From assembly GCA_976551045.1 (NCBI GenBank), contig CDPCPM010000196.1:3162001-3226000 (forward strand): a stretch of DNA of 64,000 bases. Direction: 5' to 3'. Source of the DNA: Glaucostegus cemiculus. Taxonomy: Eukaryota. The translations under genes and the position numbers were made by a program. The notes under the pieces were generated by a model, which had not been told where the DNA came from, did no database searches, and saw nothing but the letters and a program-made list of their open reading frames with translations. Of this stretch, positions 4,588 through 55,587 are shown in pieces. Every line of letters starts with the position of its first letter. The stretch's first letter is position 1.

Positions 4588-4650
4588 ATGAACAATTAAA
4601 ATCGCCATGTTGTGCATATTCTTCCTCTGAGGTTTCTCTAAGGTATAAAT
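4588..4650 (+). promoter_or_regulatory. Core promoter of locus B: CAATTA (TAATTG on minus strand), O/E-like TCCTCTGAGG and TATAAAT
   Basis: TATAAAT at 4644-4650 is 78 nt upstream of ATG 4722. The block aligns with the upstream regions of C, D, E and G. Confidence 0.65.
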
Positions 4651-4721
4651 AAGACCTACATTTGAAAGCAGGACATCTTCACGTCTGTTCGACGTCTATG
4701 AACCGAAGTTTCTCTCCCGGA

Positions 4722-4791
4722 ATGGGACTACCTGTAATCCTACATATAGAAAGGACTTACTATCCAATTCTTGTGGCAATTGGTGTTCCTG
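4722..4791 (+). CDS. Locus B exon 1, GPR139-like GPCR (MGLPVILHIERTYYPILVAIGVP)
   Basis: 70 nt ending cct g|gtaagt donor, same length and phase as exon 1 of C, D, E and G. An in-frame upstream ATG at 4698 is a possible alternative start. Confidence 0.85.
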
Positions 4792-6164
4792 GTAAGTCAT
4801 TTCAAAATAGCATTGCAAACCTATTTTTATGTGTCAAACTGACTGACTGAGATAACTAGTCTCTGGAAACGTTTCAATTCTCCGTCATATTCCTTGTGCA
4901 AACATCCTACTGAAACAGTCCTTTAGGATAATGTGATCCACTCGCACATTTAAACATCAGGTGCTTATGCACTGAATTAAAGATTAAAGCCACCTAAGTT
5001 GTAATAGATTTGGATGCTTCTCAAAGTGAACAAAGAATAATTTCCACTATTTATTATATGTCCAGCAGAAAGAAAGGAACTGCTTTCGTGCTGAATGGAA
5101 TTATCTGCCTTACTCTAGGCTCACTGCATTTTTTTCTCCATTCTTTCTGTGGAGCTTATCAGCTGCAGGTCGTAAAAAAAAAACATACTGATCCCATGGA
5201 CAGTTGGACCCTGACGCCGACAATAGTGCTCTGATACTGGCATTAGGGTTAAATGCGCTGCTGGGTGAAACTCGGAAAATCATGTTGCAGCTGATAAATG
5301 CATCATTGGATATTTTACCCCACACCCTGTTTATTGTCAATAGCACTTGCAACGGAAAAGTATCTGCATCTCGAGTCCTAGCAAGTATCCAAAATAATGC
5401 TGACTGTGCTTCTGATTCCGAAATGTAGATGTGTGTTATTCCCTCGAAATGGAAGAACTTGCACAAGGAGCTGCTAAACCAATTGAGGTCATTGTAAACA
5501 CCAGGAGCCTAAATACTGGCGCGCAGATAAATACGTCACTGAAATTAATGTCTTATAGGAAAATATGAGAGCTTAGATTTATCTGAGAATGTTTACAATC
5601 AAAGGAGCCTCGGATTCTCAGTTAATTGAAACCACTGTTCACAGATATTCTACTACTAACCTTAACAGTGGTTGCCTCCATTTTTTCTTCTTTTCATAAT
5701 TCCACTTAATTCAGTTCTCAAGAAATATTCCTTCAAGATATTCCTGCAGCATGTTACAGAAACATATGGGATAGTTCTCCCGTCGTTTTCAACCACTTAT
5801 CCACATTATCTCACGAACTGCTGGCGTATTTTTGGTGTTTATCCATTTTTAATGGTTAGCATGAGGCAAACTATCCATGCGAGAGGTAGTTGGAGAACTG
5901 TTAAATGCCTTGCATACCAAATTTCTGAGAAGCCAATAGCTGGCTGTGAGCTATGGAGAATCATCAGAATATCAGCTGCAAGAAATGATCATCTACTGGA
6001 TTTTTTTTTGAGATAATACAATAAACATCTTCTTAATAGCACTGAAAACTGGAGAGTGATTTTGGAGAAATTTTATTATTCAAACGAGGATAGAACGGTG
6101 ACACTTGAATAAGATGTCTGTATTAACACTGATATACGTGTACTACAGATGCTGGATATCTGGA

Positions 6165-6357
6165 CCAAAACACAAAATGCTGGGTTAACTTAGCGGGTCA
6201 GGCAGATTCTAAGGAGTTAAATTGAACGTCCACTTTTCGTGTCGAGACCCATTCATCCGGACTCGATGAAGGGTCTACACCTGAAACATCAACCGTCCAT
6301 CTACCTCCATAGATGCTACCTGACTCACTGATTTCCACCAGAACTTTGTGTTTTGTT
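6165..6357. repeat. ~190-bp imperfect palindrome formed by two inverted Penelope-like terminal repeats, in the intron of B
   Basis: caaaacacaaaatgctgg...gagacccattcatc (centre ~6260) gatgaagggtct...ccagaactttgtgttttg; the arms are approximate reverse complements. Confidence 0.7.
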
Positions 6358-6721
6358 CTGTCTTAACATTGGTGTGTCGGTACGGCTGTCAATAGTTGCT
6401 TTTTAAAGGGAACTTCCAAATAAACAATCCAGTTGCAACCCCTCCACAATGTTATTTGAGAAACAGATGAAAGCAAACACGCTGTTCTTGTGACGAAACA
6501 AATGTGTTGCAACGGCTCAGGCAAGACAGACAATCTGGCCCTTTCACAAACACTTTGACAAAGCATTCTTTAATAAGCCGTGACCAACCGATAAATTCGA
6601 AGAAAATGTAAAATCACAAGGCAAAAGTAAAGAAAGTGCTTTGACAAAGAGACGACTTATTCACTAAGTTTCCTAGAGCAATGAAAGTTTTTAATGAAAA
6701 TTCCTTTCTTTTTTTTAAAAG

Positions 6722-7632
6722 CCAATTTGATAACAATTTTCATCCTGTCCTCTGGAATGTGTGGTCTGTCAAGATGCATCATCCGATATTTAATGTGGAT
6801 GGAAGCAGCTGATCTAATGTGCTTGATTTTTGGTGCATTTCTTTATGAGATTAAGGAAGCGTATTTTCCACATACATTCCTCAATTACACGCCTGTTTGT
6901 AGTCTTGAGTTCGCCGTGTCGTACTTTTCAATTGATTGTTCTGTCTGGCTAACATTCGCTTTTACCTTTGATCGATTTATTGCTATTTGTTACCAGTCGT
7001 TAAGAACAAAATACAGCACTGCAAAAAACTCATCGCGGATTTTAACAGTGATTTGTTTGTTATGTATTGTAGAAAATATTCCAGTGTACCTCGTATTGGA
7101 ACCTGTGGAAATAATTGACAAGGTGCCGTGGTATTGTGCTATAAAATCAAGTTTCTACACCTCACCACTTTGGGTTGCATATTTCTGGTTAGAAACAATC
7201 TTGACCCCATTTCTGCCGTTTGTGCTGATTCTCCTGTTTAATACCTTGACGATAAAGCACATTATACTAACCAACAGAGTTAGGAGCAAACTTCGCGGAA
7301 TTAACAGTGAAAAGAGCCAACCTGATCAAGAGCTTGAAAACAGAAGGAAATCAATTACTTTATTGATCACGATATCCTGCAATTTTATCCTTTTGTGGAT
7401 ATTAACGTTCGGTGCTTCGTATCTGTACAGTTTACTACTCCTCAGTTGTTGGCAACAAATTACCATTGCAGAAGAACTTGTCTGCATGCTAAGATTTTTG
7501 AGTACCTGCACAAACATTTTCATTTATGCAATATCCCAGAGGAACTTCAGAGAGGAGTTGAATAATATAATTAAACGCCTGTTTTTCTCATCCTTAATGC
7601 ATTTAAATAATTTATATGGATTAGACTATTAA
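6722..7632 (+). CDS. Locus B exon 2, GPR139-like class A GPCR (joined with 4722-4791 gives 326 aa); TM6/ECL3 altered by compensating frameshifts
   Basis: Polypyrimidine tract plus aag| acceptor at 6721. The ORF has MEAADL (TM2), YTPVC, VWLTFAFTFDRFIAIC (TM3), ENIP, PWYC, WLETILTPFLPF (TM5), ENRRKSI and STCTNIFIY (TM7). Confidence 0.85.
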
Positions 7633-8028: not shown

Positions 8029-8061
8029 TGAGAGAGAGAGAGAGAGAGAGAAGGAGAGAGA
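8029..8061. repeat. (GA)n microsatellite
   Basis: gagagagagag... run seen directly. Confidence 0.9.
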
Positions 8062-9181: not shown

Positions 9182-10020
9182 ATGTAGTCCACTCCTCGAA
9201 AGTCACAGTACTCGCAAGCCATGGTAATATCTATTACTGAGCCGAGAACTCTGTGTCAGTGTACAGAACTAATGAAAGGCCGACGTGCTTTTGATAACCC
9301 GGCAAGCAGAGCATAATAATGACAATAAGAATAAAAACATTTTCCCAGTGAATGACAGTTGCCTACCATCCCCTCAGAGAACTAAACGACCACCAATTTC
9401 CCCATGAGGTGTCGTGCCGGAGAGGCTGGTCCCTGGTATTTTGAATTATGGCCCCCGAGTTCCGAATGCAAGCAGCCAAGTGGGCAATGTTCCTTGACTC
9501 CTCATGGATAAAGGTGCAGCAATTCTTACCAATCACTGCACAGGTACCACCATCGGCAGCGGATAGGTAATCCAGGGCCATTCTATTCTTCAGGGCGACC
9601 ATCCTGACGGCAATCAGTTCAGCTGCAGTCTGCGTCAGGGCGTCTTCCGTATGTTGCAATTCCACTGCCGTTTCGTTGTCCAGCGTCTCGATCACGTTGG
9701 CCATCTGGATGACCTCGCGGGACAGTCGGGTCGTGCCATACGTGGGAAAATCTATCATCCAAAACTTCTCGGCCTCCGTAATGGCCCTCTTGTTCTGGTG
9801 GCCGTTGTATGGTGGGTGCTCTCCAAGGTCATCTAAGGCGTGGATCTAGGGCACTACAAGTGCTGGATGGCAGCAACCATACCAGCTCCCGGGGAGCTAC
9901 GGGTATGCACGGTGGCCGCAAATCCAGTGAGTCCCATTGAAATTTCAAAGAGCTCCCAGCTTAGCGGCACCATCGTTAGTGGTCACTCGGGCACCTGAAT
10001 ACCAGTTTCAGAAATGTCCC
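9182..10020 (-). mobile_element. env: ERV env remnant (end of SU, furin site, gamma-type TM), with stop codons
   Basis: The minus strand reads NGTHWICGHRAYP*LPGSWYGCC...HQNKR|AITEAEKFWMIDFPTYG...RMVALKNRMALDYLSAADGGTCAVIGKNCCTFI. This contains an immunosuppressive domain and a CX6CC motif, followed by a hydrophobic anchor after the stop at 9363. Confidence 0.9.
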
Positions 10021-12160: not shown

Positions 12161-12199
12161 TGTTCTGAGGCATGTCTATATCATGACGGTGAGGGTGTC

Positions 12200-13540: not shown

Positions 13541-14026
13541 GAGTAACTCACTTAAAGAGAATGTCAGTGTTTCGCTATCTTGTTCAATTAATCTGATGTT
13601 CTTTACTTCAACATACAAACAACTCTCAATTGAGTACCATGTGCAGAATCACAGGTCAAAACTCTTCGATTTTGTTTGGTTAAAATTTCGCTGACAAAGT
13701 ATCTGTACAGTTATATGAAATTGCATTGGATTTTACCTGTATCTGAATAGATTTTCAACGGATTTGTAACAAATGTTCCGCCAAGTAATTTAAATTTTGT
13801 CCGATGAAAGAGAATAGAAAGCTACACTTTGCGTATTTAATAAAAAAAACTAAGTGCACTCTTTTCATAAATAATGCTTTAAAGGAAATCTTAAGGAATA
13901 ATTCGGCCTCTAACTCGTATTGTTCTCAACTGAGAAATGCATGCTATGTCATTTCTGATCCTGCGTCAAAAATAGCCATGATCGGCAGCAGTAAACAAAA
14001 CGCGGCTTTCTCAGAGGGATCAGGAG

Positions 14027-14090
14027 ACTGGATAATTCCAATCATTTTTTTGTGCTCATTCTTCCCTGGAGGCTTTGCTCACATACACAT
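14027..14090 (+). promoter_or_regulatory. Promoter homologue of locus C, with degenerate TATA (TACACAT)
   Basis: GATAATTC at 14031 and TCCCTGGAG at 14063. TACACAT at 14084 lies 78 nt before ATG 14162, where B and D have TATAAAT. Confidence 0.55.
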
Positions 14091-15120
14091 AAGACATACA
14101 TTTAAATGCAAGAGATCTGCACATCTGTCCCACGCACCAGAAACGTGGCCTGTCTCCGATTATGCAGTTTGCTTTAAAGTTACTGACTGAACTCATTTAC
14201 TACCATATTCTTGTCATAATTGGCGTTCCTGGTAAGCTCGTTATAGAATTTTGTAATAGAAATATTACTCTATGTTTTACTTGTTACCTATTTTCGAAAA
14301 TGCTAGAAAATGTTTCAGGTTTCTTCCAAATTGGTAATACAAATATCCAACTGGAAAAAATATTGCTCCGGACTTTGAACATTACGGCTTTAGATGAATC
14401 AGCTTCCGTATGTGAGTCGCCCTTGAAATTTATTGCATAATCATTCAAACAAATACATGACTAGATTGTTGAAATTTGCTCCCCGAAGCAGAAAATTGTG
14501 GTTTCCACGTTTCCAAAACTAACAAAAGGAAATTTTCTCTTCGCAAACGATGAATGTTCTTTGCTAATGACAGTTCGTCCCTTTCTCTATCCTTCAAACA
14601 AATCTAATCAATTCGACGCGCTGAGTCCCTCCAGCGCATTGTTTGCTGTTCCACTTCCCAGCATCTGCAGTCTCGCGTCTCCAAACCTAATAATCTGTCC
14701 CCGTACGTGAAAGAGCAGACGAATACAAAGGTCAGAAGAACGCTCATCCCGCCAACACCGGGCCACGAAGACGTTCGCCGTTTGCACTCATCCACGCAGC
14801 TGGATGGATGATTGCAAACGACATTATCGCTCATAATCCGATCAGTTTGCATTTTATTCTACTGAAAATCAGGACTACCTTTCCAAGCATCGTCTTGTCG
14901 TGCATACTCCAAGGTGGCTTTGCTGCAATCTATTTTAAAATTTCTACCTGCAGCAGGAGATAGGTGGACATCCTGTACACCATATGCCATTGCCAGCCTA
15001 ACCCATTGACTCTCGGTAACTGCAAAGGGTTCGGTTACTCTCCAGACCGACACCCTTCATGCTGAAAGTTAGAAAGTAATTTTGTCATTTCTCGATATAC
15101 AAACGAACGGCGGCATATGT

Positions 15121-15256
15121 NNNNNNNNNNNNNNNNNNNNNNNNNNNNNNNNNNNNNNNNNNNNNNNNNNNNNNNNNNNNNNNNNNNNNNNNNNNNNNNN
15201 NNNNNNNNNNNNNNNNNNNNNNNNNNNNNNNNNNNNNNNNNNNNNNNNNNNNNNNN
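15121..15256. other. Assembly gap (N run) in the intron of C
   Basis: N characters. Confidence 1.
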
Positions 15257-17540: not shown

Positions 17541-19399
17541 GTTTTGAAGAAATGTGATTGATGAATAATCAATCAAATTAAATACACATTGTTATAAAAA
17601 TGTGATTTAGTTGCTATTCATTTCGAATTAACATATGCTTCCTGCATTTTCTCTCCGATTACAGCTAATATGGTGACAATCTCAATCCTATCATCTGGAA
17701 AATGCGGTCACTCCAAATGCATCAACCAGTATCTATTGTGGATGGCTGCAGCTAATCTAATGCATTTGATCGTTAGCGGAATACTTTATCGGATATTCGA
17801 CCAGTACTTTCCATATTCATTTCTCCATTACACTCCTGTTTGCAGTCTTAATCTTGCCTTTATTTATGTTTCTGTTGATTGCTCTGTTTGGCTAACTGTG
17901 GCACTTACCTTTGATACATATGTTGCAATTTTTCACCAGTCATTACGGACAAAATATTGTACTGAAAAAAAGTGCAAGCATCGTTATAACAGTGGTTTGT
18001 TGCACAGGTGTTTTGCAAAATATTCCAGTGTACTTCGTGTTTGAACGTCGAGAAGAAGTTAACAAAATGCCATGGTTCTGCAGAGTAAAATCAAGCTTCG
18101 ACATCTTACCGACTTGGGCTGCATTCCTCTGGTTGGAAACTATATTAACGCTATTTTTGCCATTTCAGTTGATCCTCCTGTTCAATGCGTTGCCTATAAG
18201 GCATATTATACTGGCGAACAGTGTCAGAAGAAAACTCCGAGAAAGCAACACTGAAAAGAGGCAGACAGATCAAGAGATCGAAAACAGAAGGAAATCCATA
18301 ATCTTACTACTCACAATATCTGGAAGTTTCATTTTGTTATGGGTGGTAAATTTTGCCAGCTTCATTGCTCTCTATTTTACAGATAATCAATTGATGAACT
18401 CCGAGGATGATGATACTTTCACGATTGTAGAAGAAGTTGGTTATCAGTTAAGATTTTTAACTACCTGCACAAACGCATTCATTTGCGGTGCCTCCCAAAG
18501 CTGCTTCAGAGAGGAAATGAAAAAAATGATCAAACGTCCTCTTGCCTTAATTGCAAAAATATTCAAATAGTTCGGAACAGCAAACAATCTAGTCCGGAGT
18601 AGATGTTGTTTAATTGCTGATCAGAAATTCAAACGCATTAATCCCCAAAACACGAATACATGACGGCATACCTTTTGCCAAATCTATGTGTGATCGATTA
18701 ACTGTTTTTCAATATTGTACTTGAGCTTTCCCAAATCATGCATAACGTATGAAAACATCTCTATCTGAAATATAATAGCTGAGACAATCAGCTTTGCTGA
18801 TTTTAAAAGTGGAGTTCTATAGACCAGTTTAGTTTGTTGCAGAGATTATCCAATCTGTCGGGGCGAACCTTGTTACTTTAACTATGATGGAAAAATGCGA
18901 ACACATAACTGGTTGTGGAATATTCCTTGGAACGAAAAAAATAGCAACAATGTTTTCACTCGATGACCTCTCATCATAACTTAGAATTGTTGGAAATTAA
19001 ACGTTCTTTGACAAGAGAGGAAATCCTTTGCCGATAAAAAAATGCATGAGAATGCAGTGACGAATATAAACTGAATGACATCTGTGTTTTCTGTGTTTGC
19101 CGACAGAGGGTTACAAAAAGTGCTGGTTATCATATCCGATTGCTCCGGAGAATGTGGTGACTTGTATTAGTAGACAAGGAAACAGAACGAATGTGGTGCT
19201 GCGCAATTTGAATATGAAATACGGATAAAAGTTAAACATAAAGGAGGACAATTGTATAGTCAGAATTTCGAAGCCTCCTTGAGATTCTGAGTGGAATTGT
19301 GACGATACAATCTACTTATCTCCCAGCTCATAAACTAACTGTTGAAATATCCCTTACATTATATTTCTTCCTTGATCAGATTGCATTTAGTTAGGCAAA

Positions 19400-21930
19400 C
19401 CAAATAAGGTGAAAAATTTTAAAAGAGCCTTTCACACAGTCTTGGCTTCAATATCCCTGGTATTACCTCGGGAAATATATTTGTTGTACAAATGATGGTC
19501 AACAAATACTGATTCCCTGCCTTGGTCTTTGGCAATGGGCCAACACAATCCACAATTACCTTTGAAAAGCATTCACCAAATGCAAGAATAGTAAGTAATG
19601 GAGGCATAAGAGGTTTAGGTTTACCTGCCATTTGACATGTGTGACAATTCCCACAAAATATTACCAATCCTTTCTCGCACCAGGCCAAGAGAATTGTTTA
19701 AAAACCTTCTTTACCGTTGTTTGCACATCAAGGTGATTACCTGAAGGCATACGATGGGCCAGGCAGAAAATCTCATTGCTGAATTTCGGGGATCACATTC
19801 CTCACTAACAGGAACATCAGGAGTTTTCCACTTCAACATTAACACTCCATTTTTGAAATAATATCCAACTGGCACGTTCGCAATCTCATCAATTGAGAGT
19901 GTTTTTTTATCTCAATACAGCGAGCTCAGCGTCTTTGGCCTACTTCATCCTAAACTCTTTTCTGGATAGAGACAAATCTTTACACTCTGACTCGACACAA
20001 GTACTTTGGTCCACAAGTGAAGAAAGAAAAGTCTCTGACAAATCATCATCATCATTTGAATCTTGTTTTGGGCTGCAACAGCGAATAAATATCAGGCTGC
20101 ACAGAACCATCTGCATTGGCTGGATTCATAGCTTATCTCGAGTCACTGCACCGGATGGATAAACATCGGAATCGATCTTTAACTCATCAATAATCGGTTT
20201 GTTCGTTAGCGGCACCGCAGGGAAAAATTTACCACCTGCAAGTGCATTCCCTAATAACAAACAAACTCTTTCCACTGGTATACGAGGTCGTAGTCCTATT
20301 TTAATAAGTCCTTCTACTAACTCTGACTTGAAAATACCTTGTGCAGTTGTATAGACACAATGTCTGCTGTAATGCATCGAACTAGCTTTACCTCACCAGT
20401 GGCAGTATTGTCAACAAACTTCAAAATATTGTCCAACAAGAGGGACTGCAAGGTCTCAGTAACCCGAAGGATTTTCACAGGCAACAAGTGTGTCCCATTT
20501 TTACTAAAACGAAACCCTCTGACACAAAAGAATGAAATTTATCCCGAACTCCTTCCAACGTCTCAGAATTTGCCTCCATAGAGGACTGAGATTTATCAGC
20601 ATGTCCAGATCCCCTTCGGTTTTTAACTGTTTCAACTGTTTGCAAACAAGCATCTGGCACTGCCTCCTTTTCCTTCCTTTTCTTCAGGAGGGAAAAATTA
20701 GCTAAAACATGACCACGTTTCTTACAAAAATAACACGGACGATCAGCAGGTGTCTCTAATACTTGCTTCCGATTATTTTTGCCCTACATACTACGTCCCA
20801 ATTTGATTTCTGGTTCACCTGAATTATCCACACTACTCTTCTGGAAGGTCTCAGTTTGTCCCATTTTATATTTGCGAGTTAAAGCAAACTCAGTAGCTGA
20901 CTCAGCATCTTCGAGCAATGTTTCCAATTCCTTCTCATATAAATGTGTTTGTAAGTCACTCTGGACACACCTTTTAACTTTTTCCACAAAAATCAACTCT
21001 TTCAATCTTTGATAATCCTCATTTGTACTTTGATAGTGCACCATTTCAAAACGCAAACTCTATTCGCTAGCAAACAACATTTCAGTCTGGTTCACATATT
21101 TCTTCAGATTCCTGAAATTTGGCTGTACGCTTCAGCAACCAATTCAGAAAAGCTAGGCACAGCCTGTTTTATTGTATCATAGTCAGCCGCCTCACTAACG
21201 GATAGGGCAAAATAACCATGTTGCGCTTTACCTCTTATTACACTTAGTAACATAAGAGACCAACTGCAAAGTGGCCACATTTAACTCTGAGCATTTTTTT
21301 TTCAAAATATTGAAAATACTGATCAAGCTGATCTTGCTCAAATGGAGGGACTAATCGAACCTTCCTGCTGGCCATAAGGTTACCACCATAAACATAAACA
21401 AAACCCCCACGCTTCGTCATTTCTAACTCATGCTGCCGTTCTTACTCCTGTTCCTCCGTCTCTAAAATTATCTTCTGCACTTGCACCTCCAGCTTCCTGA
21501 CTTCTATATCTAGTCTACTTTCTTCTGTCTCAGTCTCTATCTTCTTTTCTTCTAACTGAATCTGGGCCATCTTCACCTGTACCTCAGAGATCTGATTACA
21601 CTCTAGGAAAATTTTCTAACATGCTCTTATCAAACACCCTCTCATCCTCATAATATGCAACTATCAGTCTTGGAATATCTGGCTCTTTCATAGATCGCTT
21701 TGCTGCTTCAAGTTTTAACGTTCTGGCAACGCTCAACAACTCTTCCTTCCACGCCCTGTGCGATCCAACAAGTGTTCGTGATTCCATTATGCATCAACAT
21801 CCATGGCTGCTGGTTTTCGCACACACAAGCCAATCAAAAGGAAATGTATCAGATGAATAATCTCCAAGTTGTTTCAAACACAGACCGCTTGTACCGCTCT
21901 TGAGTTCCATCCCGGACGAGTCCTCAATTT
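19400..21930 (-). mobile_element. Degenerate Gypsy (Gmr1-like) LTR retrotransposon internal region: gag, CCHC knuckle, protease, integrase; 3'-truncated
   Basis: Gag 'YQRLKELIFVEKVKRCVQSDLQTHLYEK' (20784-21056), knuckle CYFCKKRGH (~20710-20736), protease-region 'SELVEGLIKIGLRPRIPVERVCLLLGNALAGG' (20126-20377) and integrase 'CHTCQMAGKP...VIVDCVGPLPKTKAGNQYLLTIIC' (19419-19688). Confidence 0.9.
21909..21926 (-). promoter_or_regulatory. Primer-binding site complementary to the tRNA-Pro 3' end
   Basis: Minus strand tgaggactcgtccgggat vs canonical tgggggctcgtccgggat, 4 nt from the LTR boundary. Confidence 0.8.
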
Positions 21931-25600: not shown

Positions 25601-26106
25601 TCTATTTTATTTGGTGGAAATGATTTTACGAGAATGTAAGTGTTTACTGTATCTTCCTCAACTCTTCTGATTGTCTTTGCTTTTATATACGATGGACAAC
25701 ACTCATGTGCGTACCATGCGCAGAATCACAGATCAACAGTTTTCTATTTTGTTTGTTTAAAATTTCGCTGACAAATCTTCTGAACAGTTAAATGAAATTG
25801 CATGAATTTTTCTCTATCTCACTACATATTCAAAGAACTTGCAACAACAGTTTCCGTCATGTAATTTCCGTCATGTTGCCTGATCAAAGAGAATAGAAAT
25901 CTCGACTTTGTGTACTTAATCAAAAGAATTTAATGCATTCCTTCTTTAAATAATGTTTCAAAGGAATGTTTAAAAAATAATTCTGCCTCTATCTGATATT
26001 GTTCTCAGCTGAGGAAGGGGTTTTATTTCATTTGTGAAATACTGCATCAAATTAGCCGAAAATCAGTGACAGTAAACAAATCCCGGTTTTCCCAGACGGA
26101 TCACGG

Positions 26107-26171
26107 GACTGGATAATTCAAATCTTATCTTTGTGCTCAATGCTCCCTGAGGCTTTCTCTGACATATAAAT
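26107..26171 (+). promoter_or_regulatory. Core promoter of locus D: TAATT, O/E-like TCCCTGAGG and TATAAAT
   Basis: TAATT at 26114, TCCCTGAGG at 26144 and TATAAAT at 26165, 78 nt before ATG 26243. Confidence 0.65.
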
Positions 26172-26242
26172 AATACATAACTTTGAAAGCAACTAGATTT
26201 GCATATCTGCCCACACACCAGAAACGTGGCTTCTTTACAATT

Positions 26243-26312
26243 ATGGAATTGGATGTAAAGCTACTGACTCAACTCATTTACTACCATATTCTTGTCATAA
26301 TTGGCGTTCCTG
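26243..26312 (+). CDS. Locus D exon 1, GPR139-like GPCR (MELDVKLLTQLIYYHILVIIGVP)
   Basis: 70 nt, ending in a cct g|gtaagc donor. Confidence 0.87.
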
Positions 26313-28457: not shown

Positions 28458-29383
28458 GTAATATGTTAACAATCTCGATCCTATCCTCTGGAAAATGCAG
28501 ACTCTCCAAATGTATCACTCGGTATCTTGTCTGGATGGCTGCAGCTAATCTAATGCACTTGATCGTCAGCGGAATATTTTATCGGATTTTGGACGGGTAT
28601 TTTCCACATTCATTTCTCCATTACACTCCTATTTGCAGTCTTAATTTTGCCCTTATTTATGTTTCCATTGACTTCTCTGTCTGGCTAACGGTGGCCTTTA
28701 CTTTTGATAGATTTGTCGCAATTTGTTGCCGGTCACTACGAACAAAATATTGTACTGAAAAAAGTGCAATAAGGGTTATAACAGTGGTTTGTTTCATATG
28801 CATTTTGGAAAATATTCCCATATATTTTATGTTTGAACCTCAAGAAGAAGTTAACAAAGTGCCATGGTTCTGTAAAGTAAAATCAGACTTCTACATCTTA
28901 CCTGCTTGGGCTGCGTTTTTATGGTTGGAATCCCTCTTAACACCATTTCTACCATTTCTGCTGATCCTCCTGTTCAATGCGTTGACCATAAGCAATATTA
29001 TAGTGTCTAACAGAGTCAGAAGAAAACTCCGAGAAAGCAACACTGAAAAGAGGCAGACAGATCAAGAGATCGAAAACAGAAGGAAATCCATAATCTTACT
29101 ACTCGGAATATCTGGAAGTTTCATTTTGTTATGGGTGGTAAATTTTGCCAGCTTCATTGCTCTCTATTTTACAGATAATCAATTGATGAACTTCGAGGAT
29201 AATGACATCTTCACTATTGTTGAAGAAGTTGGTTATCAGTTAAGATTTTTAAGTACTTGTACAAACGCATTCATTTATGGTGCCTCCCAAAGCTGCTTCA
29301 GAGAGGAACTGATTAATATGTTTAAACGTCCTCTTACATTAATTGAAAAATATTTAAATAGTTTGTATGGCTTTGGAACATGA
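28458..29383 (+). CDS. Locus D exon 2, intact GPR139-like class A GPCR (joined with exon 1 gives 331 aa)
   Basis: Acceptor attgcag|. Uninterrupted ORF with MAAANL, YTPIC, VWLTVAFTFDRFVAICC, ENIP, PWFC, WLESLLTPFLPF, ENRRKSI, FILLW, STCTNAFIY and helix-8 FREEL. Confidence 0.92.
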
Positions 29384-35300: not shown

Positions 35301-36297
35301 AGGCCGTTCAGGGAAAGTACTGAGACTTGTCCTAGTCGTGATAGGTAAAACCCTATTGCGAGGGTATGATGAGGAGAAGGAACTGGTTAAGTGAGCTAAT
35401 GGAAGGATGAATAAAGGGAGAACATTTGGTCGGCAAACAAGTTGTGGGAGCAGAGCACAGGGAAATCGGAATAGCCAATGTTTGCATCATTTGGTTGCAA
35501 ACTACCGGAGAATAAACTGCAATTTTGCACTTCCCATCTATGGTTGGCCTCTAGGTAGCAACAGACAGCACAGAGGACAGGAAGCTGGCGGAAGGGGACG
35601 TCAGTAATTTTCAGCAGCATCCAACGGTAAACTCGAGATAGCTATTCCGCTGATGGTGCAGGTAGTCCGCAAAACAAAAAAAAAAAAAACAAAACTTGTC
35701 TACTTTCCCCTTCATTTCACGAAAGAACCGTCGTTTATATCTCGGGCACTGAATGCACCATATCCCCATTAAATGGTTGTCATATTACATTGCCACCGCG
35801 GTTTATCATAAACACATTTGACTGCCAACTGATCGATTAACAAAAATGAAATTGTTTTTATTTTTGCATGCAATTCAGAACTCCCGAGTGTGACTCTAAA
35901 CGATCACAACCCCTATAAACAATTATTTTGTTTTTGCTGTTTGACTTTATGCGAAATTCCTGGAAAATTGTCATAACGCATCAAATTCTCCGAATATTTG
36001 ATCTTATTTCATTTATCCCACATGTTACTTCTGATCCGCCAATGTAAATGATATGCGGCTGAAAGTAAAGGAGATGCAGATAAGCTTTCATGAAAATAAC
36101 CAAGAAAATCCTCGTTCAAGAGAAACAGCATTTATTGAATAGAAATCTTTCTTCAACGCAAATGCAAGAAATTTTATTGCTCCTTTCTGTTCTTTAATTT
36201 GTTGAGTACTTTAAATGATGAAACATCTATATACAGCTTACACTTTAACTGTGGTCAGATGCATAAACAGCAGACAGATTAATTAATGTGATCAAGT

Positions 36298-36361
36298 GAC
36301 TGAATAATTCCAGTCATCTTGAATGCTGCTGCCACCCTGGAGATTTCTCTGAGATATAAGT
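36298..36361 (+). promoter_or_regulatory. Core promoter of locus E: TAATT, O/E-like ACCCTGGAGA and TATAAGT
   Basis: TAATT at 36305, ACCCTGGAGA at 36334 and TATAAGT at 36355, 79 nt before ATG 36434. Confidence 0.65.
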
Positions 36362-36433
36362 AGCAAGTAAAATTGAAATCAAGAGATCGACGTGTCTGTT
36401 AAAATACAAAAAAAGCGTAGCATCCCTTCGAAT

Positions 36434-36503
36434 ATGAAACGACCTGTGATTTTGCAGACTGAAAGTATTTACTATCCTATTCTTGCAATAATTGGAATTC
36501 CGG
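36434..36503 (+). CDS. Locus E exon 1, GPR139-like GPCR (MKRPVILQTESIYYPILAIIGIP)
   Basis: 70 nt, ending in a ccg g|gtaagt donor. The link to exon 2 crosses an N gap. Confidence 0.85.
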
Positions 36504-36517
36504 GTAAGTCAGTCGCA

Positions 36518-37616: not shown

Positions 37617-38750
37617 AATATAGAATATAGATAGAACATAGATGCCTACAGCACAATTCAGGCCCTTCGTCCCACAAAGCTGTACCTGACATCTCCCCAC
37701 ACTATTAGGCATACCCATAGCTTTCTATCTTATTTACCTCCATGTACCCATCCAACATTCTCTTGAAAGACCCGAACGGATTCGCCTCCACCACCATCTC
37801 TGGCAGCCCATTCCACGCACTCACCACTCTATGAGTAAACACTTACCCCTAACATCTCCCCTATATCTTCCCCCCAGCACCTTAAACTTATGTCCTCCTG
37901 TGGCCACTATTTCAGACCTGGGGGAAAGCCTCTGACTATCTACCCTATCAATACCCCTCATCATCTTCTACACCTCAATCAGGACCCCCTCATCCTCTTC
38001 CTCTCCAAGGAGAAAAGGCCGAGTTCCCGCAAACTGCTCTCATAAGGCATGCTCCTCATTCCAGGCAGCATCCTCGTAAACCTCCTCTGCACCCGTTATA
38101 CAGCATCCACATCCTTCCTGTAGTGAGGCGACCGGAACGGAACACAATACTCCAGGTGAGGTCTGACCAGGACCTATACAACTGAAGCAACACCTCCCGA
38201 CTCCTAAATTCAATCCCTCGACCGATGAAGGACAATACACCATACGCCTTCCTAACCATAGAGTCAACCTGCGCAGCCGCCTTGAATGTCCTATGGACTC
38301 GGACCCCAAGATCCCTTTGATCCTTCACACTACCAAGAGTCTTACCATTAATTCTATATTCCTCCGACCTATTCGACCTACCAAACGGAACCACTTCACA
38401 TTTATCTGGGTTGAACTGCATCGGCCATTTCTTAGCCCAACTCTGCATCCTATCTAATTCCCTCTGTAGCCTCTGACAGCCCTACAAACTATCCACATCT
38501 CCCCCAACCTTCGAGTCGTTAGCAAACTTACTAACCCACCCCTCCACTTCCTCATCCAGGTCATTTATAAAGATGACAAACAGCAAGCGTCCCAGCACAG
38601 ATCCCTGTGGTACACCGGAGGTCACCGACCTCCACTCAGAATATGATCCTTCCACAACCACTCTTTGCCTTCTGTGGGCCAGCCAATTCTGAATCCACAC
38701 GGCAATGTCCCCCTGGATCCCGTGTCTCCTCACATTCTCCATAAGCCTGG
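37617..38750 (-). mobile_element. 5'-truncated CR1-like LINE in the intron of E
   Basis: ORFs 38482-38787 ([41 protein letters not shown]) and 38056-38448 (WPMQFNPDKCEV..RDLGVRVH), plus a (tagaa)n tail at the left end. Confidence 0.93.
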
Positions 38751-40436: not shown

Positions 40437-41356
40437 CTAATTTGGTGGCAATCAACATCCTGTCCTCTGGAAAGTGTGGTCTCTCCAGATGCATTATCCA
40501 ATATCTTATATCGATGGCAGCAGCAGACCTAATGGTGTTGGTTTTCAATATAATGCTGTACGAGATGAAAGAGGCATACTTTCCGCATTCATTCCTCAAT
40601 TACACACCTATTTGCAGTCTTCTTATTACACTAATTTATATTTCCCTCGACTGCTCTGTCTGGCTAACTGTCACTTTTACATTTGATAGATTTGTTGCTA
40701 TCTGTTGCCAGTCATTACGGACAAAATATTGTACTACTAAAGTTGCGTTGAATGTTATAGCACTGGTGTTTTTGTTAAGCATATTAGAAAATATTCCAAT
40801 ATATTTCATATTTGAACCTCGGGAAATCATTAACAATATGCCATGGTCCTGTTATGTAAAGTCAAGCTTTTACACTTTACCAACTTGGGTTGTGTTTTTG
40901 TGGTTTGAAACGATTTTAACGCCATTTACACCATTTGCTCTGATCTTGATGCTCAATTCCTTGACCATTAAGCATATTATACTGGCCAACCGAGTCAGAA
41001 GCAAGTTCCTAGGAAATAAAAGTGAGAATTGTCAGACTGATCAAGAGATTGACAATAGAAGGAAATCCATCATTTTATTGGTTGCGATATCTGGTAATTT
41101 TATTCTCTTGTGGATGATTAACCTTGCGTGCTTCATCTGTGTACAACTTACAGATACTCAGTTTCTGAAAACCGATTACAATGACCCTTTTACCATTGCA
41201 GAAAAAAGTGGTTATATGCTGAGGTGTTTGAGCACTTGTACAAACACCTTCATTTATGCGGTATCTCAGAGACACTTCAGAGCAGAATTGCAGGGTATGT
41301 TTCAACGTCCTCTGTTTCTAATTTCTCATTTCTGCAAACGTTGTTTAAATATTTAG
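40437..41356 (+). CDS. Locus E exon 2, intact GPR139-like class A GPCR (joined with exon 1 gives 329 aa)
   Basis: Acceptor gtttgcag|. ORF ANLVAINILSSGKCGLSRCII..MAAADL..YTPIC..FTFDRFVAICC..ENIP..PWSC..WFETILTPFTPF..DNRRKSI..STCTNTFIY..FRAEL. Confidence 0.92.
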
Positions 41357-42224: not shown

Positions 42225-44790
42225 AAAGCAGAAGACGTAGGAACAGAACTGGGCCATGACGCCCATCGAATCAGCACCGCCATTCGATCATGGCTTTTTA
42301 TTTTCCCCCCTCAACACCAGTCTCCTTCCCGCAAACTTTGACACACTTACTAATCAATAACATATCAACCTCCCTCTAAATATACCCAATGACTTAGCAT
42401 CCACAGGTGTCTGTGAATTAAATGAATTCCACCGATTGACCACACGGTGGCTCAATAGATTCCTCCTTATTTCGGCTCTATAGGGACGTACTTCTCTTTT
42501 GAGCCTCTGCCTGAGGTCCTGGAATCCCAATCTGAAAGAATCATCGTCTCCACATCGGGTTTCACCAGGCCGTCCATTATTTGTTGGTTTTCAATAAGAT
42601 TCCCCGTCGCCCTTTTAACTCTAGCACGTCTAGGTCCAACAAAAGCCCCTCGTATGTTAACGATTTCTTCCCCGGGATCATTTTCCTAAACCTTCGCTGG
42701 AATCTCTCCTAGGCCAGCACATCCTTCGTTAGTTATGGAGTTCAAAACTGCTCATGACAATCTAAATGTCGTCCTGCCAATGCATTATAAAGCCAAGTAA
42801 TTCAATCGGAGAGGAGTAGAACGTAAAGCATATCTTTGTTTATGTATTCTCCTCTTTCCCAGTTGAATTCTAACACTGCATTTGCCTTCCTTACCATTCA
42901 CTCAGAATCAGAATCAGAATCAGAATCAGTTTTATTGTCACAACCATATACATACATGGTACGCATAGGAGCGAGATACCGTCCTCCACAGGAACACGTC
43001 TCATAGAAAAGAATAACATAACAACCAACAGAGAGACACATACACACTTGGCAGAATACACAGTACAAAACATTACTCATTAGTTCTTACATAAATAGAT
43101 CTTAAAGTGAACGGGCTGGTGTCAGGCATTTAAAGTGCTGGTGCATTTCTGTGCACCTAGCATCTCCTAGTGTTAACAAAGGAAGATGGAGGGATGAGAG
43201 AGTTTGCAGTTCTTATGGCTTGCGGAAAGAAGCTATTGTTCAGCCTGGACGTTCTTGCCCTGATACATTTAAGCCTCCTCCCTGATGGCAAAATTGTGAA
43301 GAGGTGGTGGGAGGGGTGAGAGGGGTCGGCCATTATGCTTTTTGTCTTCCTCACACAACGGTCTTTGTATATGTCTGCGAGGGATGGAAGCGAGACACCT
43401 ATGATCCACTCCGCAGCCTTAACTATCTTCTGGAGGGACTTCCGCCCAGCAGCTGAGCAGCTTCCAAACCAAACAGAGATACATTGAGTTAGGATGCTCT
43501 CAATGGTCCCCCTGTAGAAGGATTTCATGACTGAGGGGTGTGGGTACGCTTTCCTCAGTCTCCGCAGGAAGTAGAGGCGTTTCTGAGCCTTCTTCGTGAG
43601 GGCCGTAATGTTAGTGGACCAGGTCAGGTCGTCGGTGATGTGCACCCCCAGGAACTTGGTGCTGCGTACTTGTTCCACAGCAGACCCGTTGATGGTCAGC
43701 GGGGCGTGCACACGATGACACTCAACCTGCAAGTTAACATTTGAGGAATCATGCACTATGACTCGCAGGTCCCTTTGCACCTCCAATTTCTGAATTCGCA
43801 CCCCGTTTAGAAAACAGCCTTTGCCTTTACCCATTCTGTCAAATTTCGTTATCATATACTTCATTGCATTGCCTTTCGTCCGCCACCTCTTTGCCCATTC
43901 TCTCAAACTGTCCAAATCCATCTACAGATTCCCTGCTTTCCCCGCACTACCCACACATCCTCCTATCTTTGCATCATACGGAAACTTCATCACAAAACCA
44001 TCAATTCCATGATCCAGATCATCATCATACAACGTGAACAGTAGCCGACTCAACATGAACCTCTGAGGAAGATTATTAGTCACCTGCAGCCAAACAGAAA
44101 AGGCTCCTTTTATTCCCACTGTTTGCTTTCTTCCAGTCAGCCAATCTTCCATCCATGCCAATATTTTCCTGTAATACCATGGACCCTTATCTTGTTTAGC
44201 AGCCTCATGTGTGGCACATTGTCAAAAACCTTCTCAAACTCCAAGTGTTCAACCTTCTCTGACGCTCCTTTATCTCTTATGCTTGTTACTTCCTCTAAGA
44301 ATTCCACCAGATTTATTAGGTAATATCTCTCCTGAAGGAACTCATGCTGACTTCGACCTATGTTATTATGTGATTCCAAGTGCCCCGAAACTTCATCCTT
44401 AACGATAGACTCTAATATCTTCCGAACCACTGAAATAAAACTAATCGACCTACGACTTCCTGCCTTTTGCCTCCCTCTCTTCTTAAAGATTGGAGTGACA
44501 TTTGCGACTTTCCAGTCCTCTGTAACTAACTGAGTCTAGTGATTCTTGAAAGAGCACTGCTGATGCCTCCATAATCTCTTAAGTTTCGAATTTCAGAGAC
44601 CTGCTGTGCAGTCCATCCGTTCCAGGTGACTTATCTAACTTCAGACCTTACAGCTTTTCAAGCATGTTCTCCTTCGTAATAGAGACTACACTCACTTCTG
44701 TCCACGGACTCCACAGAATTTATGACCTGTTCTGGTGTCTTCCGCAGTGAAGACTGACGCAAAATACCAATTTAGTTCATCCTACATTCA
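42225..44790 (-). mobile_element. CR1-like LINE ORF2 remnant, interrupted by a nested Rex1/Babar element
   Basis: ORFs 44137-44430 (KILESIVKDEV..FEKVFDNVPHMRLLNKIRVHGI) and 43922-44161 (WMEDWLTGRKQTVGIKG..DDLD) are CR1 RT. The 3' part continues at 42225-42900. Confidence 0.88.
42905..43718 (-). mobile_element. Young 5'-truncated Rex1/Babar-type LINE with (TCTGAT)n tail and CACTCA target-site duplication
   Basis: Open frame HAPLTINGSAVEQVRSTKFLGVHITDDLTWS..KKAQKRLYFLRRLRK..FYRGTIESIL..DPSHPSH..PSGRR..RLNNSFFPQAIR. The tcagaa repeats are at 42902-42929 and cactca occurs at 42899-42904 and 43719-43724. Confidence 0.92.
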
Positions 44791-46290: not shown

Positions 46291-46559
46291 CAAGTATTCA
46301 ATGAGCAATCAAACAATGCCTCGTGATTTCTACAACTCTGCTCTGAGAAGAGCATCTTCTCTGTATGGAACGTCGTTCAAAATAGATCAAGAAGCTTGAA
46401 TGTTCTACCACCAGCCGTCTGTTACGATATAACATTCTTCGTTCAATAACATAGTACAGCGCAGAGAACATGGTAGACAGACAAGCTTGTGGGAGAAGAG
46501 CACAGTGAAATTGTAAAATTCGCTGTTTTTTAACATTGAATTGTAAGGTACACGAATAG

Positions 46560-46790
46560 ATTGTGCTACATTGTTCTTCCTCTGAGGGGTTGGCCTCTCG
46601 GTCGCAACAGAGAAGGCCAAGAACAGACCGATAGGTGTGCAGGAGGGAAGGACATTTGAAACAACTTGGAATCGGCGGGTCGAGATAGCCGTTGCGTGAG
46701 AGTGCAGGTGCAGTGAGAACGATCGCCAAGCCTCCCCTTCATTTCAAGAAAGCGACTTAGATTATATCTCAAGCATCGATTGTACTACAC
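46560..46790 (-). mobile_element. Penelope-like GIY-YIG endonuclease fragment
   Basis: 'MKGRLGDR...' and 'HTYRSVLGLLCCDREA...EEEQ' resemble the Penelope EN C-terminus. Confidence 0.55.
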
Positions 46791-47172
46791 CAGATTGGAA
46801 TGGCTACAGGAGATGTTGGTCATATTGAACTAATTTCGCTATGTATCTTGAACAGAATTCAAACTGCTACATATCTATTTAAATAATACAGATAGACTTC
46901 ATTTTGACATGGAATTGACGATCCCCATCGGAGTGCGACTCCAAAGGATGATGTCCCTTATAAACAACTCTAATTTTCTTTTTGGTTTGCTTTCTGCGGC
47001 GTTTCTATACAATTGAGAATTGGGTAGAAATGGAAAAGAAAAGAACGCATTTGTTTTCTCATGGAGTTGAAGGGCAAAGAAATATTAGTGCATGAACCAC
47101 AAATTGCACCAACGACCCGTCTAGTTTTTGGGTTATTTTCGCGTTTATTGCCATTTCTATACTGTGTTGCAG

Positions 47173-48080
47173 CTAATTTGATGGAACTCATCGTCTTCAC
47201 TTCTCTAAAGTGTGGTGTCTCTCGATGCATCACAGAATATCTAATATCAATAGCAGCAGAAGCCCTAATGGAGTTAGGTTTCAAGACAATTAAGGAGGCG
47301 TATTTTCCGCATTCATTCCTCAATTACATATCTACTTGCAGTCTTCGGTTTGTACTGATTTATATTTGGTTTCATTGCTCTATCTGGCTAACTGTCACTT
47401 TTACATTTGATCTATTTATTGCTGTATGCTGCCAGTCATTACGGACAACATATTGTACAAAAAAATTGCATCGAAGGTGATCGCATTGGTGTTTTTGTTA
47501 CGGTTTTAAGAAAATAGTCCAATCGACTTCATATTTGAACCTCAGTAAATAATTGACAAAGTGCCATGGTCCTGTTCTGCAAAGTCAAGCTTTTACACCT
47601 CATTAGGTCGGGTGGTATTTTTGGTTTGAAACCATTTTAACATTATTTGCGCCATTTGCGCTGATTCTGTTGCTTAATTCCTTGACCATAAAACATATTT
47701 TACGCCTAACACAGTCAGAAGGTAGCTCCGAGGAAAGAACAGTAAGAGGAACCAGATTGACCAAGAGACTGACAACATAAGGAAATAGATTATTTTACTG
47801 GATGCAACATCTGACAGTTTTATTCTCTTATGGATGGTAAATCTTCCGTACCTCATCTGCGTACAGTTTAGAGATCGTTAATTTATGGAAACCGGTTGTA
47901 ACGACGCCTTCAGCATTGCGGGAAAAGAATTGTGGCTATATACTGAGTAGTTTGAGCACTTGTACAAACACCGTCATTTGTGCGGTATCACAGAGAAACT
48001 TCAGAGAGGAAAAAAAGAATGTGTTTCAACGTTCTCTTTTTCGCATTTCTCACTTCTTCAAACCTTGTGTGAATGTTTAG
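47173..48080 (+). pseudogene. Locus F: full-length but decayed exon 2, closest to E; no exon 1 seen
   Basis: Acceptor gttgcag|ctaatttg. Lesions include a 12-nt deletion in TM2, DRF to DLF, a -1 frameshift at the A-run 47459-47465, and several stops (e.g. cctcagtaa ~47546, aggtag ~47725). The intron end and 3' flank align to E. Confidence 0.9.
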
Positions 48081-54100: not shown

Positions 54101-54589
54101 ATCTGGACGGCATTCTGACGATGTATTCGTCGCGTTATAACGTGATCAGGATGCATTCGCTGTCGTGGGGTTGATGAGAATATTTCTATTACATGCAGTT
54201 AAGAGTCATTGACCTGAATATGCGTGTTGTTTCTGTGAAAAAAATACGCTCCTCTACCTCGGCAGTGAGTTTGCTTCCTCCTCGACATACAGAAAGAACA
54301 CTGAAACAACTCAAACCGTTGAGCAGCAACCGTCGGAACAATGACTTTCAGTCGAGGTTTCGAAGCGATACCACATCAGGGCGCACAGGGAAGAGGAAAC
54401 ATTGCAGGGCATTGTAGAACTTAGGGGCTGGGTGAAAAAACAGTGGTGGGGGTGACTGGTGGTGTCAGATGATGTGACGGTTGATGGTTAGATGGAACCC
54501 CGTTGGTAAATGCTGGGACAAGGACCGGATTACTGTGGGATGATGGGTAGAAGGAACAAAGAGGAGAGTTGAACAACGAGAGAATAAAA

Positions 54590-54880
54590 CTTGGTGGTTA
54601 AACAAGTGTGGTGGAGAAAAGCACGGGGAAATTGAGATATTCAATGTTTTTGTTAACATTCGGATGAAAGCCACCAAATTGGAATGTGCAATGATGCTCT
54701 TTCGATCTGGTCTTTGGCCTCTCCGTAGCAATGTAGAAGGCCGTGGACAGGCATCTAGGTGTGAGAGCAGTGTTGAAAATACATGTAAACGGAAGCTCAA
54801 GATGGCCCTTGCCTACAGAGTGTTGGAACTCCACAAAACGGTCGCGATATCTACCCTTCATTTCACCAAAGTAGCTAAGG
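54590..54880 (-). mobile_element. Penelope-like GIY-YIG endonuclease C-terminal fragment
   Basis: YFGEMKGRYRDRFVEFQHSV...PFTCIFN...KEHHCTFQFGGFHPNVNKNIEYLNF resembles the Penelope EN end. Confidence 0.65.
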
Positions 54881-55455
54881 TTATATCAATGTACTATACC
54901 AGATTGAACAGGTTAAACGGCATGTTGGTGATATTATCGTTCCGCTATTCATCTGATATGAAATACAATTGAATTCACTGCCTATCTAATCAAACAATGC
55001 AGATTGTCTTTATTATGTCATGCAATTATTGATTTAGGTCTGAGTGCAATTCCAAGGGATCAAATGCTCATCGACAGATCTCTCTACATATTTTTGTTCT
55101 GCTGTGCATGACTTTCCTGGAAAGTTATCATACTGCATCAAAGTCTCAGAATATTTGTTTGATTTACTTATCCCATGTGTAGCTGCAGATTATAATATTT
55201 AAATTTTACATAACGGAAAAGAAAGAAGATGCAGAATGGATTCCGGCGAAAATCACCAACAAAGCGTTCATTCAACAGAAACGGCATGTATTCCATCGAA
55301 CATTTTCTCAAAGACTACTGCAATAAATATTATGGCTTTTGTCTGTTGATTCGTTTGTTGAAAACGTTAAATGCTGAAACATCGGTATGCAGTTTATCAT
55401 TTGAAGCGTGATCAGATTCACAACGAAAGAACAACCTAATTATTGAAATCATGAG

Positions 55456-55587
55456 ACTGAATCATTCCAGCCATCTTGCCTGCTGATTCTACCATGGGGA
55501 TTTCTGTGAGATAGAAATAGCAGCTTAATGTGATATCAAAAGATCCGTGTTGCTGTTCAACTATCTGGAAACGTTGTTTCCCTTTCT
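55456..55587 (+). promoter_or_regulatory. Orphaned promoter/5' UTR of locus G with degenerate TATA (TAGAAAT)
   Basis: gactgaatcattccagccatcttg...accatggggatttctgtgagatagaaatagc aligns to the E promoter at 36298-36430. Confidence 0.7.

What the first reader, a model, noticed from the sequence alone, without database searches (positions are those of the whole stretch)
4588..55520. Conserved promoter module: homeodomain-like site, O/E(EBF)-like site and TATA at fixed spacing
Seen: upstream of each exon 1 there is a TAATT/CAATTA (B 4593, C 14033, D 26114, E 36305; TCATT in G at 55462). About 30 nt later comes TCCTCTGAGG / TCCCTGGAG / TCCCTGAGG / ACCCTGGAGA / ACCATGGGGA. About 21 nt after that is the TATA box, 78-79 nt before the ATG. 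More distal flanks of B, D and E do not align well by eye. Established: paired homeodomain (Lhx2/Emx2) and O/E (EBF; consensus ~TCCCNNGGGA) sites characterise mammalian olfactory receptor promoters, and EBF1 also drives B-cell genes. Inference: these receptors may use olfactory-neuron (or B-cell) regulatory logic. The O/E matches are imperfect and could simply be shared by descent.
Basis: partly seen in the sequence, partly recalled or inferred. Interest (0 to 1): 0.72.

Follow-up and report, generated by a model that had tools for sequence, protein, structure and literature searches.

The report
Smell-gene-like promoter on ray receptor cluster
Five neighbouring copies of an unstudied receptor gene in a ray share a short, conserved start switch that partly resembles the switches of mammalian smell-receptor genes, a hint, not yet proof, that sharks and rays have an overlooked family of chemical sensors.

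Summary
The module is real. Coordinates and spacings are exact (HD to O/E 29-30, O/E to TATA 21, TATA to ATG 78-79), except that G has no ATG there. The window is a tandem cluster of seven two-exon class A GPCR genes of an elasmobranch-expanded family annotated 'GPR139-like'; three are intact. The five promoters are only three lineages (B; C/D; E/G), separated by dS 0.9-1.2. The 72-bp block is constrained: 29 invariant columns against 17.5 expected. TATA and HD core are the conserved peaks (0.83, 0.82). The O/E site is not more conserved than its neighbours (0.57 vs 0.54), yet all five copies stay within 1-2 mismatches of the O/E consensus (p about 0.002-0.02 as one prior hypothesis; not significant against a whole motif library). 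Best reading: a short TATA core promoter, probably EBF/homeodomain-driven, on a birth-and-death receptor family that looks chemosensory. No expression data could be obtained, so olfactory use is inference (about 0.3).

The parts
1347..1624 (+). Gene A, broken exon-2 remnant; no promoter or exon 1 found inside the window
4580..4590 (+).
   Evidence: 10 bases equal the mb-1 EBF site printed in PMC2394523
4593..4598 (-). B: homeodomain site, CAATTA = TAATTG on the minus strand
4623..4632 (+). B: O/E-like site, 2 mismatches to TCCCYNGRGA
4644..4651 (+). B: TATA box TATAAATA
4722..4791 (+). B: coding exon 1 (23 codons + 1 base, GT donor)
6722..7632 (+). B: coding exon 2, open, 7tm_1
14020..14091 (+). 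C promoter block: upstream element 14020-14030, TAATT 14033, O/E-like 14063-14072 (1 mismatch), degenerate TATA 14084-14091
14162..14231 (+). C: coding exon 1
17665..18570 (+). C: exon 2 with a frameshift in an A run near 17969 (pseudogene or assembly error)
26101..26172 (+). D promoter block: upstream element 26101-26111, TAATT 26114, O/E-like 26144-26153 (2 mismatches), TATAAATA 26165-26172
26243..26312 (+). D: coding exon 1
28458..29383 (+). D: coding exon 2, open, 7tm_1
36280..36362 (+). E promoter block: extra TAATTA 36280-36285, upstream element 36292-36302, TAATT 36305, O/E-like 36334-36343 (1 mismatch), TATAAGTA 36355-36362
36434..36503 (+). E: coding exon 1
40437..41356 (+). E: coding exon 2, open, 7tm_1
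46467..48080 (+). Gene F: distal flank abuts the intron remnant and a broken exon 2 (47173-48080); proximal promoter and exon 1 are missing
55437..55519 (+). G promoter block: TAATTA 55437-55442, upstream element 55449-55459, TCATT 55462, O/E-like 55491-55500 (2 mismatches), TAGAAATA 55512-55519
55585..56353 (.). G: insertion of about 770 bp between 5' UTR and exon 1 (ends approximate)
56358..56426 (+). G: exon-1 remnant without ATG and without GT donor
59070..59209 (+). G: short broken exon-2 remnant

Best explanation
The block is the real proximal promoter of a birth-and-death family of GPR139/GPR142-related receptors, inherited by tandem duplication and kept by selection. Shown: a constrained, nearly indel-free 72-bp block with fixed spacing. 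Inferred: TBP binds the TATA box and transcription starts 26-31 nt downstream (an invariant CA lies at +25/+26), giving a 5' UTR of about 50 nt inside coding exon 1. Inferred, weaker: a COE/EBF dimer binds 21 nt upstream of the TATA box, and a second EBF-half-site-like element with a TAATT homeodomain core 5 nt away forms the upstream activator. That would restrict expression to an EBF- and homeodomain-positive cell type, most likely chemosensory neurons (olfactory epithelium first, other sensory cells next). My odds: core promoter 0.9; EBF really binds 0.5; olfactory neurons 0.3.
For: Constraint: 29 of 72 invariant columns vs 17.5 neutral although lineages differ by dS 0.91-1.24. TATA 0.83 and HD core 0.82 between-lineage identity, ranks 1 of 94 and 4 of 97 windows. 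Upstream element 8 of 11 invariant, identity 0.81; best 11-column window in about 700 bp of distal flank has 5; 194 of 5000 neutral 100-bp blocks reach 8. O/E fit: total 8 mismatches over five genes, against 13-19 in 8 of 8 aligned exon-2 blocks and 15-20 in the 6 other flanking 100-bp blocks; 6 of 1141 frequency-matched permutations; B, D, E alone 10 of 1500. The window holds no perfect and 34 one-mismatch TCCCYNGRGA sites, two of them at this position in C and E. Family traits: 4 of 7 genes broken, dN/dS 0.22-0.38, 1676 clusters at E<=1e-20 with all 110 named among the best 120 from sharks and rays. Nearest solved relative is GPR139, an amino-acid-activated receptor (PMC5430874 abstract).
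Against: O/E columns are not more conserved than the spacer (0.57 vs 0.54). If the ancestor held a good site, neutral drift leaves 8 or fewer mismatches in 80-493 of 2000 runs, so selection on this site is not shown. 30 of 3000 (five genes) and 61 of 3000 (B, D, E) random motifs fit as well. No copy matches the O/E consensus perfectly; 35% of random 100-bp stretches hold a 2-mismatch site. C and D carry only TAATT, not TAATKR. The upstream element has 2-4 mismatches to the O/E consensus and a 5-bp, not 1-bp, gap to the HD core. Mammalian OR promoters are mostly TATA-less without this fixed geometry (PMC5318403), and catshark olfactory epithelium appears to lack the ciliated neurons that express ORs (PMC10116579). 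Only three independent lineages were available.
Confidence: 0.45

Rival explanations
1. The core promoter is real, but the O/E match is incidental and shared by descent. The true activator is the 19-bp block TCAnGnGAmTGrAyAATT, read by other factors (for example a POU-homeodomain protein; resemblance of TGAATAATT to POU4F sites is recalled, from no call), so the olfactory link does not follow.
For: O/E columns sit at background conservation; neutral retention from a good ancestral site 4-25%; 1-2% of random motifs fit as well; the best-fitting permuted motifs hit the upstream element, not the O/E site (my reading of their letters); 12 of 19 columns of the upstream block invariant.
Against: A degenerate site can turn over while keeping its match: positions Y and R vary only within class and C2, C3, G9 are invariant in 5 of 5. 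As a single prior hypothesis the fit has p about 0.002-0.02.
Confidence: 0.35
2. The EBF sites are real but serve EBF1 in B cells or another non-sensory EBF-positive tissue; the family is an immune or hormonal receptor expansion.
For: B's upstream element shares 10 bases with the mb-1 (B-cell) EBF site. EBF proteins act in B cells and olfactory neurons alike (PMC2394523 passage).
Against: 53 of 110 named database models lack exon 1 (45) or carry extra, apparently wrong, N-terminal sequence (8); I read this as poor transcript support in commonly sequenced tissues, which fits sparse expression better than an abundant blood or spleen cell (indirect inference). The paired TAATT core is an OR-promoter trait (PMC3247239).
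Confidence: 0.1
3. The block is not the promoter: it is neutral residue of duplication, or exon 1 is an internal exon whose acceptor is the pyrimidine tract plus AG just before the 'TATA', with the start site far upstream.
For: B, E and G have a pyrimidine run ending in AG one or two bases before the TATA. Some homology persists at -450..-180 between lineages (0.52-0.63 per base).
Against: C and the intact gene D have AC, not AG, there. Conservation exceeds neutral descent. The only 2-mismatch TATA is in frameshifted C, and the only lost TAATT is in pseudogene G.
Confidence: 0.08

Closest known systems
Mammalian odorant receptor promoters (O/E plus homeodomain sites within 200 bp of the TSS; Young et al. 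2011, PMC3247239, passages read)
   Same: O/E-like site and TAAT-core site within about 100 bp upstream of the inferred TSS, AT-rich background, clustered paralogous class A GPCR genes with many pseudogenes.
   Different: Fixed spacing and a TATA box in every copy; two coding exons and no evidence of an upstream non-coding exon; O/E site not more conserved than local background here, whereas it is in mouse; the protein is not an OR (no OR Pfam family at E<=1).
Greek Island Lhx2/Ebf composite motif (Monahan et al. 2017, PMC5608512, passages and supplements 2 and 7 read)
   Same: A degenerate EBF-like 10-mer lies directly upstream of a homeodomain core; B has CAATTAAAA as in the Sfaktiria probe.
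   Different: Gap is 5 bp here and 1 bp in the probe, where 2 added bases already impair binding of the fusion protein; no exact composite found in the window; those elements are distal enhancers.
GPR139 / GPR142 and their fish relatives (subtypes named GPR210A/B by Rinne et al. 2019, PMC6504862, passage read)
   Same: Best solved-structure match is human GPR139 (E 1.4e-18 by profile); database models are named 'probable GPR139'; relatives in coelacanth, salamanders and two teleosts, 31% identical for the coelacanth protein.
   Different: Tandem multigene family in sharks and rays. Of the four Trp/Phe-site residues, F109 (Y/F here) and W241 are kept; H187 is E/D and N271 is Y (mapping by my count on the alignment). 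Whether the coelacanth relative is GPR210A or B was not tested.

Membership tests
OR-type promoter | O/E consensus site within 200 bp upstream of the start | tested here: met
   1-2 mismatches to TCCCYNGRGA at TATA-21 in 5 of 5; perfect YYYCARRRR there in B, C, D; consensus from PMC3247239 Table 1 and PMC5638857 legend
OR-type promoter | O/E site more conserved than neighbouring bases | tested here: not met
   0.57 vs 0.54 upstream spacer and 0.68 downstream spacer; three lineages only, low power
OR-type promoter | Homeodomain site TAATKR | tested here: inconclusive
   B has it at the stated place, E and G at TATA-75, C and D have none in the 100 bp; TAATT core column identity 0.82
OR-type promoter | Binding by EBF and Lhx2/Emx2; sparse expression in olfactory neurons | not testable with these tools
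   needs EMSA/ChIP and RNA data
Greek Island composite motif | EBF 10-mer and homeodomain core 1 bp apart | tested here: not met
   5 bp in 5 of 5 vs 1 bp in the published probe
Known vertebrate olfactory receptor families (OR, TAAR, V1R, V2R) | Protein family membership | tested here: not met
   Pfam at E<=1 gives 7tm_1 and only sub-threshold Srx and zf-RING hits for 4 of 4 proteins; nearest structure GPR139
GPR139 orthologue | Trp/Phe site F109, H187, W241, N271 | tested here: not met
   2 of 4 kept
TATA core promoter | TATAWAWR octamer (recalled consensus) | tested here: met
   0, 0, 1 mismatches in intact B, D, E; exact matches occur 0.22 per kb on the + strand
TATA core promoter | Transcription start 25-31 nt downstream | not testable with these tools
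   invariant CA at +25/+26 seen; no RNA data

The most novel reading that the evidence does not exclude
Sharks and rays have a fifth, large olfactory receptor family, unrelated to OR, TAAR, V1R and V2R, that grew out of a GPR139/GPR142-type amino-acid/peptide receptor and independently took on EBF plus homeodomain promoter grammar with fixed spacing for one-receptor-per-neuron expression in microvillous neurons.
Probability: 0.3. Interest if true: 0.9.

Novelty: new variant of a known kind. Interest (0 to 1): 0.55.

Why it matters
Cartilaginous fishes smell well but are reported to have very small OR, TAAR and V1R repertoires and a few dozen V2Rs (PMC10116579, passages). A large receptor family outside these four, with an olfactory-type promoter, would change that picture and show independent recruitment of the same regulatory code. 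The 72-bp block gives a small, direct test (reporter, EMSA, in situ). If the O/E match is incidental, what remains is an ordinary conserved core promoter, but on a family I could not find described in the held literature.

Tried and rejected
No whole genome is held for this window, so the family-wide motif test could not be run. No RNA holder listed for exon 2 of E; this is no evidence either way, and no reads could be laid. More promoters were sought without success: exon-1 pattern in metagenome contigs, 0 matches; protein profile in metagenome contigs, 1 weak locus L001 that looks unrelated; viral contigs, 0 of 250 candidates. N-terminal extensions of mispredicted shark models were tried as translated promoter DNA: P0022 and P0077 show UTR-level likeness and P0077 has Tyr-Lys 26 codons before the Met, where TATAAA would fall, but nothing reliable reaches the O/E site; dropped. 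Greek Island composite rejected on spacing. Splice-acceptor reading rejected because D lacks the AG. Literature: 'GPR139' with 'elasmobranch' 0 papers; with 'shark' and 'expansion' 4 papers, none on this family by title and abstract start; whale shark supplements 24 of 24 searched, no GPR139; PMC11886862 0 hits. The catshark atlas supplement (PMC11979771) was too large to read and may hold the tissue expression; the 2018 shark genomes paper is not held. The tree is the quick version; the careful search did not finish.

Full report
What the window is. Three long ORFs hit Pfam 7tm_1. tblastn and a promoter profile resolve seven tandem + strand genes, A to G, each with a 70-nt coding exon 1 and an exon 2 of about 900 nt. 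B, D and E are open; A, F and G are broken; C has one frameshift in an A run. A protein search gave 1676 clusters at E<=1e-20; of the best 120, 110 carry names, all from sharks and rays, mostly 'probable G-protein coupled receptor 139', and 10 are unnamed Logan proteins. In a quick tree of 71 rows, B, C, D and E fall in a 12-row clade (SH-aLRT 98) with skate, electric ray and stingray proteins and four unnamed ones; E's nearest named row is from Hemitrygon. The source is therefore probably a ray (inference). Relatives exist in coelacanth, salamanders and two teleosts. Human GPR139 is the nearest solved structure but distant. No whole genome is held.

Check of the observation. Every coordinate and spacing given is right: HD to O/E 30, 30, 30, 29, 29; O/E to TATA 21 in all five; TATA to ATG 78, 78, 78, 79. 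G is the exception: about 770 bp separate its 5' UTR from an exon-1 remnant with no ATG and no GT. F has lost its promoter and exon 1. The five promoters are not independent. C and D are one duplicated unit (72-74% over several kb; 78% over 650 bp at the promoter), E and G another (71% over 454 bp). There are three lineages. Between them dS is 0.91-1.24 and fourfold-site identity 0.44-0.62. Against that, the -70..+10 window keeps 0.64-0.69 identity per base, while more distal bins give 0.45-0.63 and shuffled DNA 0.53. In simulations of neutral descent tuned to these identities, 17.5 +/- 3.6 of 72 columns are invariant; 29 are observed, reached in 9 of 5000 runs (no indels in the model, window chosen after seeing the data). 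The block is constrained.

Which parts carry the constraint. Between-lineage column identity: TATA 0.83 (best of 94 windows), HD core 0.82 (rank 4 of 97), O/E-like site 0.57 (65 of 92 windows equal or better), spacer before it 0.54, spacer after it 0.68. The three motifs together beat the other columns (p 0.015), but that comes from TATA and HD. The 18-base consensus covering it and the HD core occurs at these five places only. In B it shares 10 bases with the mb-1 EBF site printed in PMC2394523 (passage); against the O/E consensus it has 2-4 mismatches on the better strand, so it is at best a half-site. Its gap to the HD core is 5 bp; the Greek Island composite probe has 1 bp and is spacing-sensitive (PMC5608512, passages and supplement 7). 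It is not that motif. An invariant CA at +25/+26 from the TATA is a candidate start. The intact genes have 0, 0 and 1 TATA mismatches, the broken C and G have 2 and 1, and G has lost the TAATT core at the stated place.

Is the O/E match more than chance? Against TCCCYNGRGA (PMC3247239 Table 1, passage) the five sites have 2, 1, 2, 1, 2 mismatches. For: 6 of 1141 frequency-matched permuted motifs fit the same 100 bp as well; 9 of 5000 neutral simulations do (2-39 of 2500 at other divergences); 8 of 8 exon-2 blocks and the 6 other flanking blocks score 13-20 against 8; with B, D, E only, 10 of 1500 permutations. With the looser YYYCARRRR (PMC5638857 legend) B, C and D are perfect, but neutral simulations reach the observed score in 28-193 of 2500. 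Against: 30 of 3000 random motifs of the same layout fit the five genes as well and 61 of 3000 fit B, D, E, so a scan of a hundred or more motif families is expected to return one or more such matches. If the common ancestor held a good site, drift alone preserves this fit in 80-493 of 2000 runs. So an EBF-like site probably stood in the ancestral promoter, and whether selection keeps it is open. For the HD site, the OR-type TAATKR is present at the stated place only in B, further upstream in E and G, and not in C or D; 26% of random 100-bp stretches hold a TAATT, so its fixed position, not its presence, is the signal.

How it most likely works. Shown: fixed geometry and constraint. Inferred: a TATA core promoter starting about 26-31 nt downstream, a UTR of about 50 nt, and an upstream activator of EBF-like plus homeodomain sites. 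The family behaves like chemoreceptor families: tandem copies, 4 of 7 broken, dN/dS 0.22-0.38, a very short N-terminus, and an amino-acid receptor as nearest characterised relative (PMC5430874, abstract), although only 2 of its 4 site residues are kept. 53 of 110 named models lack exon 1 or have extra N-terminal sequence, and none of the 12 Logan proteins inspected has exon 1 spliced to exon 2; both fit low transcript coverage but prove nothing about tissue. Against the olfactory reading: mouse OR promoters are mostly TATA-less (PMC5318403, parts 1-2 of 5 read; PMC3247239 finds TATA calls in 39%), and catshark olfactory neurons appear to be all microvillous, with ORs not expressed there (PMC10116579, passages). 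EBF also acts in B cells. I give 0.45 to a true EBF/homeodomain promoter for sensory cells (0.3 for olfactory neurons), 0.35 to an incidental O/E match on a real core promoter, 0.1 to a B-cell or other non-sensory EBF role, 0.08 to no promoter.

Comparison and novelty. It works, at most, like an OR promoter; the genes are not ORs, TAARs, V1Rs or V2Rs and not GPR139 orthologues by the pocket test. Seven searches of the held library (listings and abstract starts seen) showed no paper on this family's expansion or promoters; Rinne et al. 2019 name GPR210A/B subtypes in bony fishes without shark data (passage). Most subscription papers are not held, and the catshark atlas supplement that may hold tissue data could not be read; its main text passages do not mention the family. 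Two earlier AI notes of this scan describe the same family in other genomes, one as chemoreceptor-like and one with a conserved TATA promoter; they are unchecked leads, not support.

Verdict. Observation confirmed with small corrections; interpretation partly supported. A real, constrained promoter with a suggestive but unproven O/E site and one more conserved element than reported. Interest 0.55: the promoter alone is modest evidence, but it gives a cheap test of whether a large, apparently undescribed receptor family serves smell in sharks and rays.

Noticed in passing
window 46467-47173: Gene F's distal upstream flank runs straight into the intron remnant before exon 2: a deletion removed the whole proximal promoter and exon 1.
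   Followed up: partly
window 55585-56353: Insertion of about 770 bp at the start codon of G, with no second copy in the window; origin not identified.
   Followed up: partly
window 36298-36317: In E the HD core sits inside an inverted repeat, TGACTG-N8-CAGTCA; only partly kept in the other copies.
   Followed up: no
window 4633-4643, 26154-26164, 36344-36354, 55501-55511: The pyrimidine-rich TTTCTCTGA stretch between O/E site and TATA is better conserved (0.68) than the O/E site; in E it is a perfect YYYCARRRR match on one strand.
   Followed up: partly
window 4698-4721: B has an in-frame upstream ATG that would add 8 residues to the N-terminus.
   Followed up: no
window 7380-7470: B has a 5-residue deletion with divergent sequence between TM6 and TM7, and Cys in place of an otherwise invariant Tyr (27 of 28 rows); it may be decaying despite the open frame.
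   Followed up: partly
window 9363-9845: Minus-strand ORF of 160 aa that by eye resembles the transmembrane subunit of an endogenous retroviral envelope gene; a remnant, not checked with a tool.
   Followed up: no
window 19419-21059: Minus-strand fragments that by eye resemble integrase and Gag/SCAN-like parts of a Gypsy-type retroelement; not checked.
   Followed up: no
window 37690-38841, 43157-44535: LINE reverse-transcriptase-like fragments (CR1/L2-type by eye) in introns and spacers; not checked.
   Followed up: no
window 6685-6697: A 1-mismatch copy of the extended OR homeodomain motif AACTTTTTAATGA lies in B's intron just before exon 2; probably part of the branch/pyrimidine region.
   Followed up: no
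window 15121-15256, 36518-36676: Two assembly gaps of N, in the introns of C and E.
   Followed up: no
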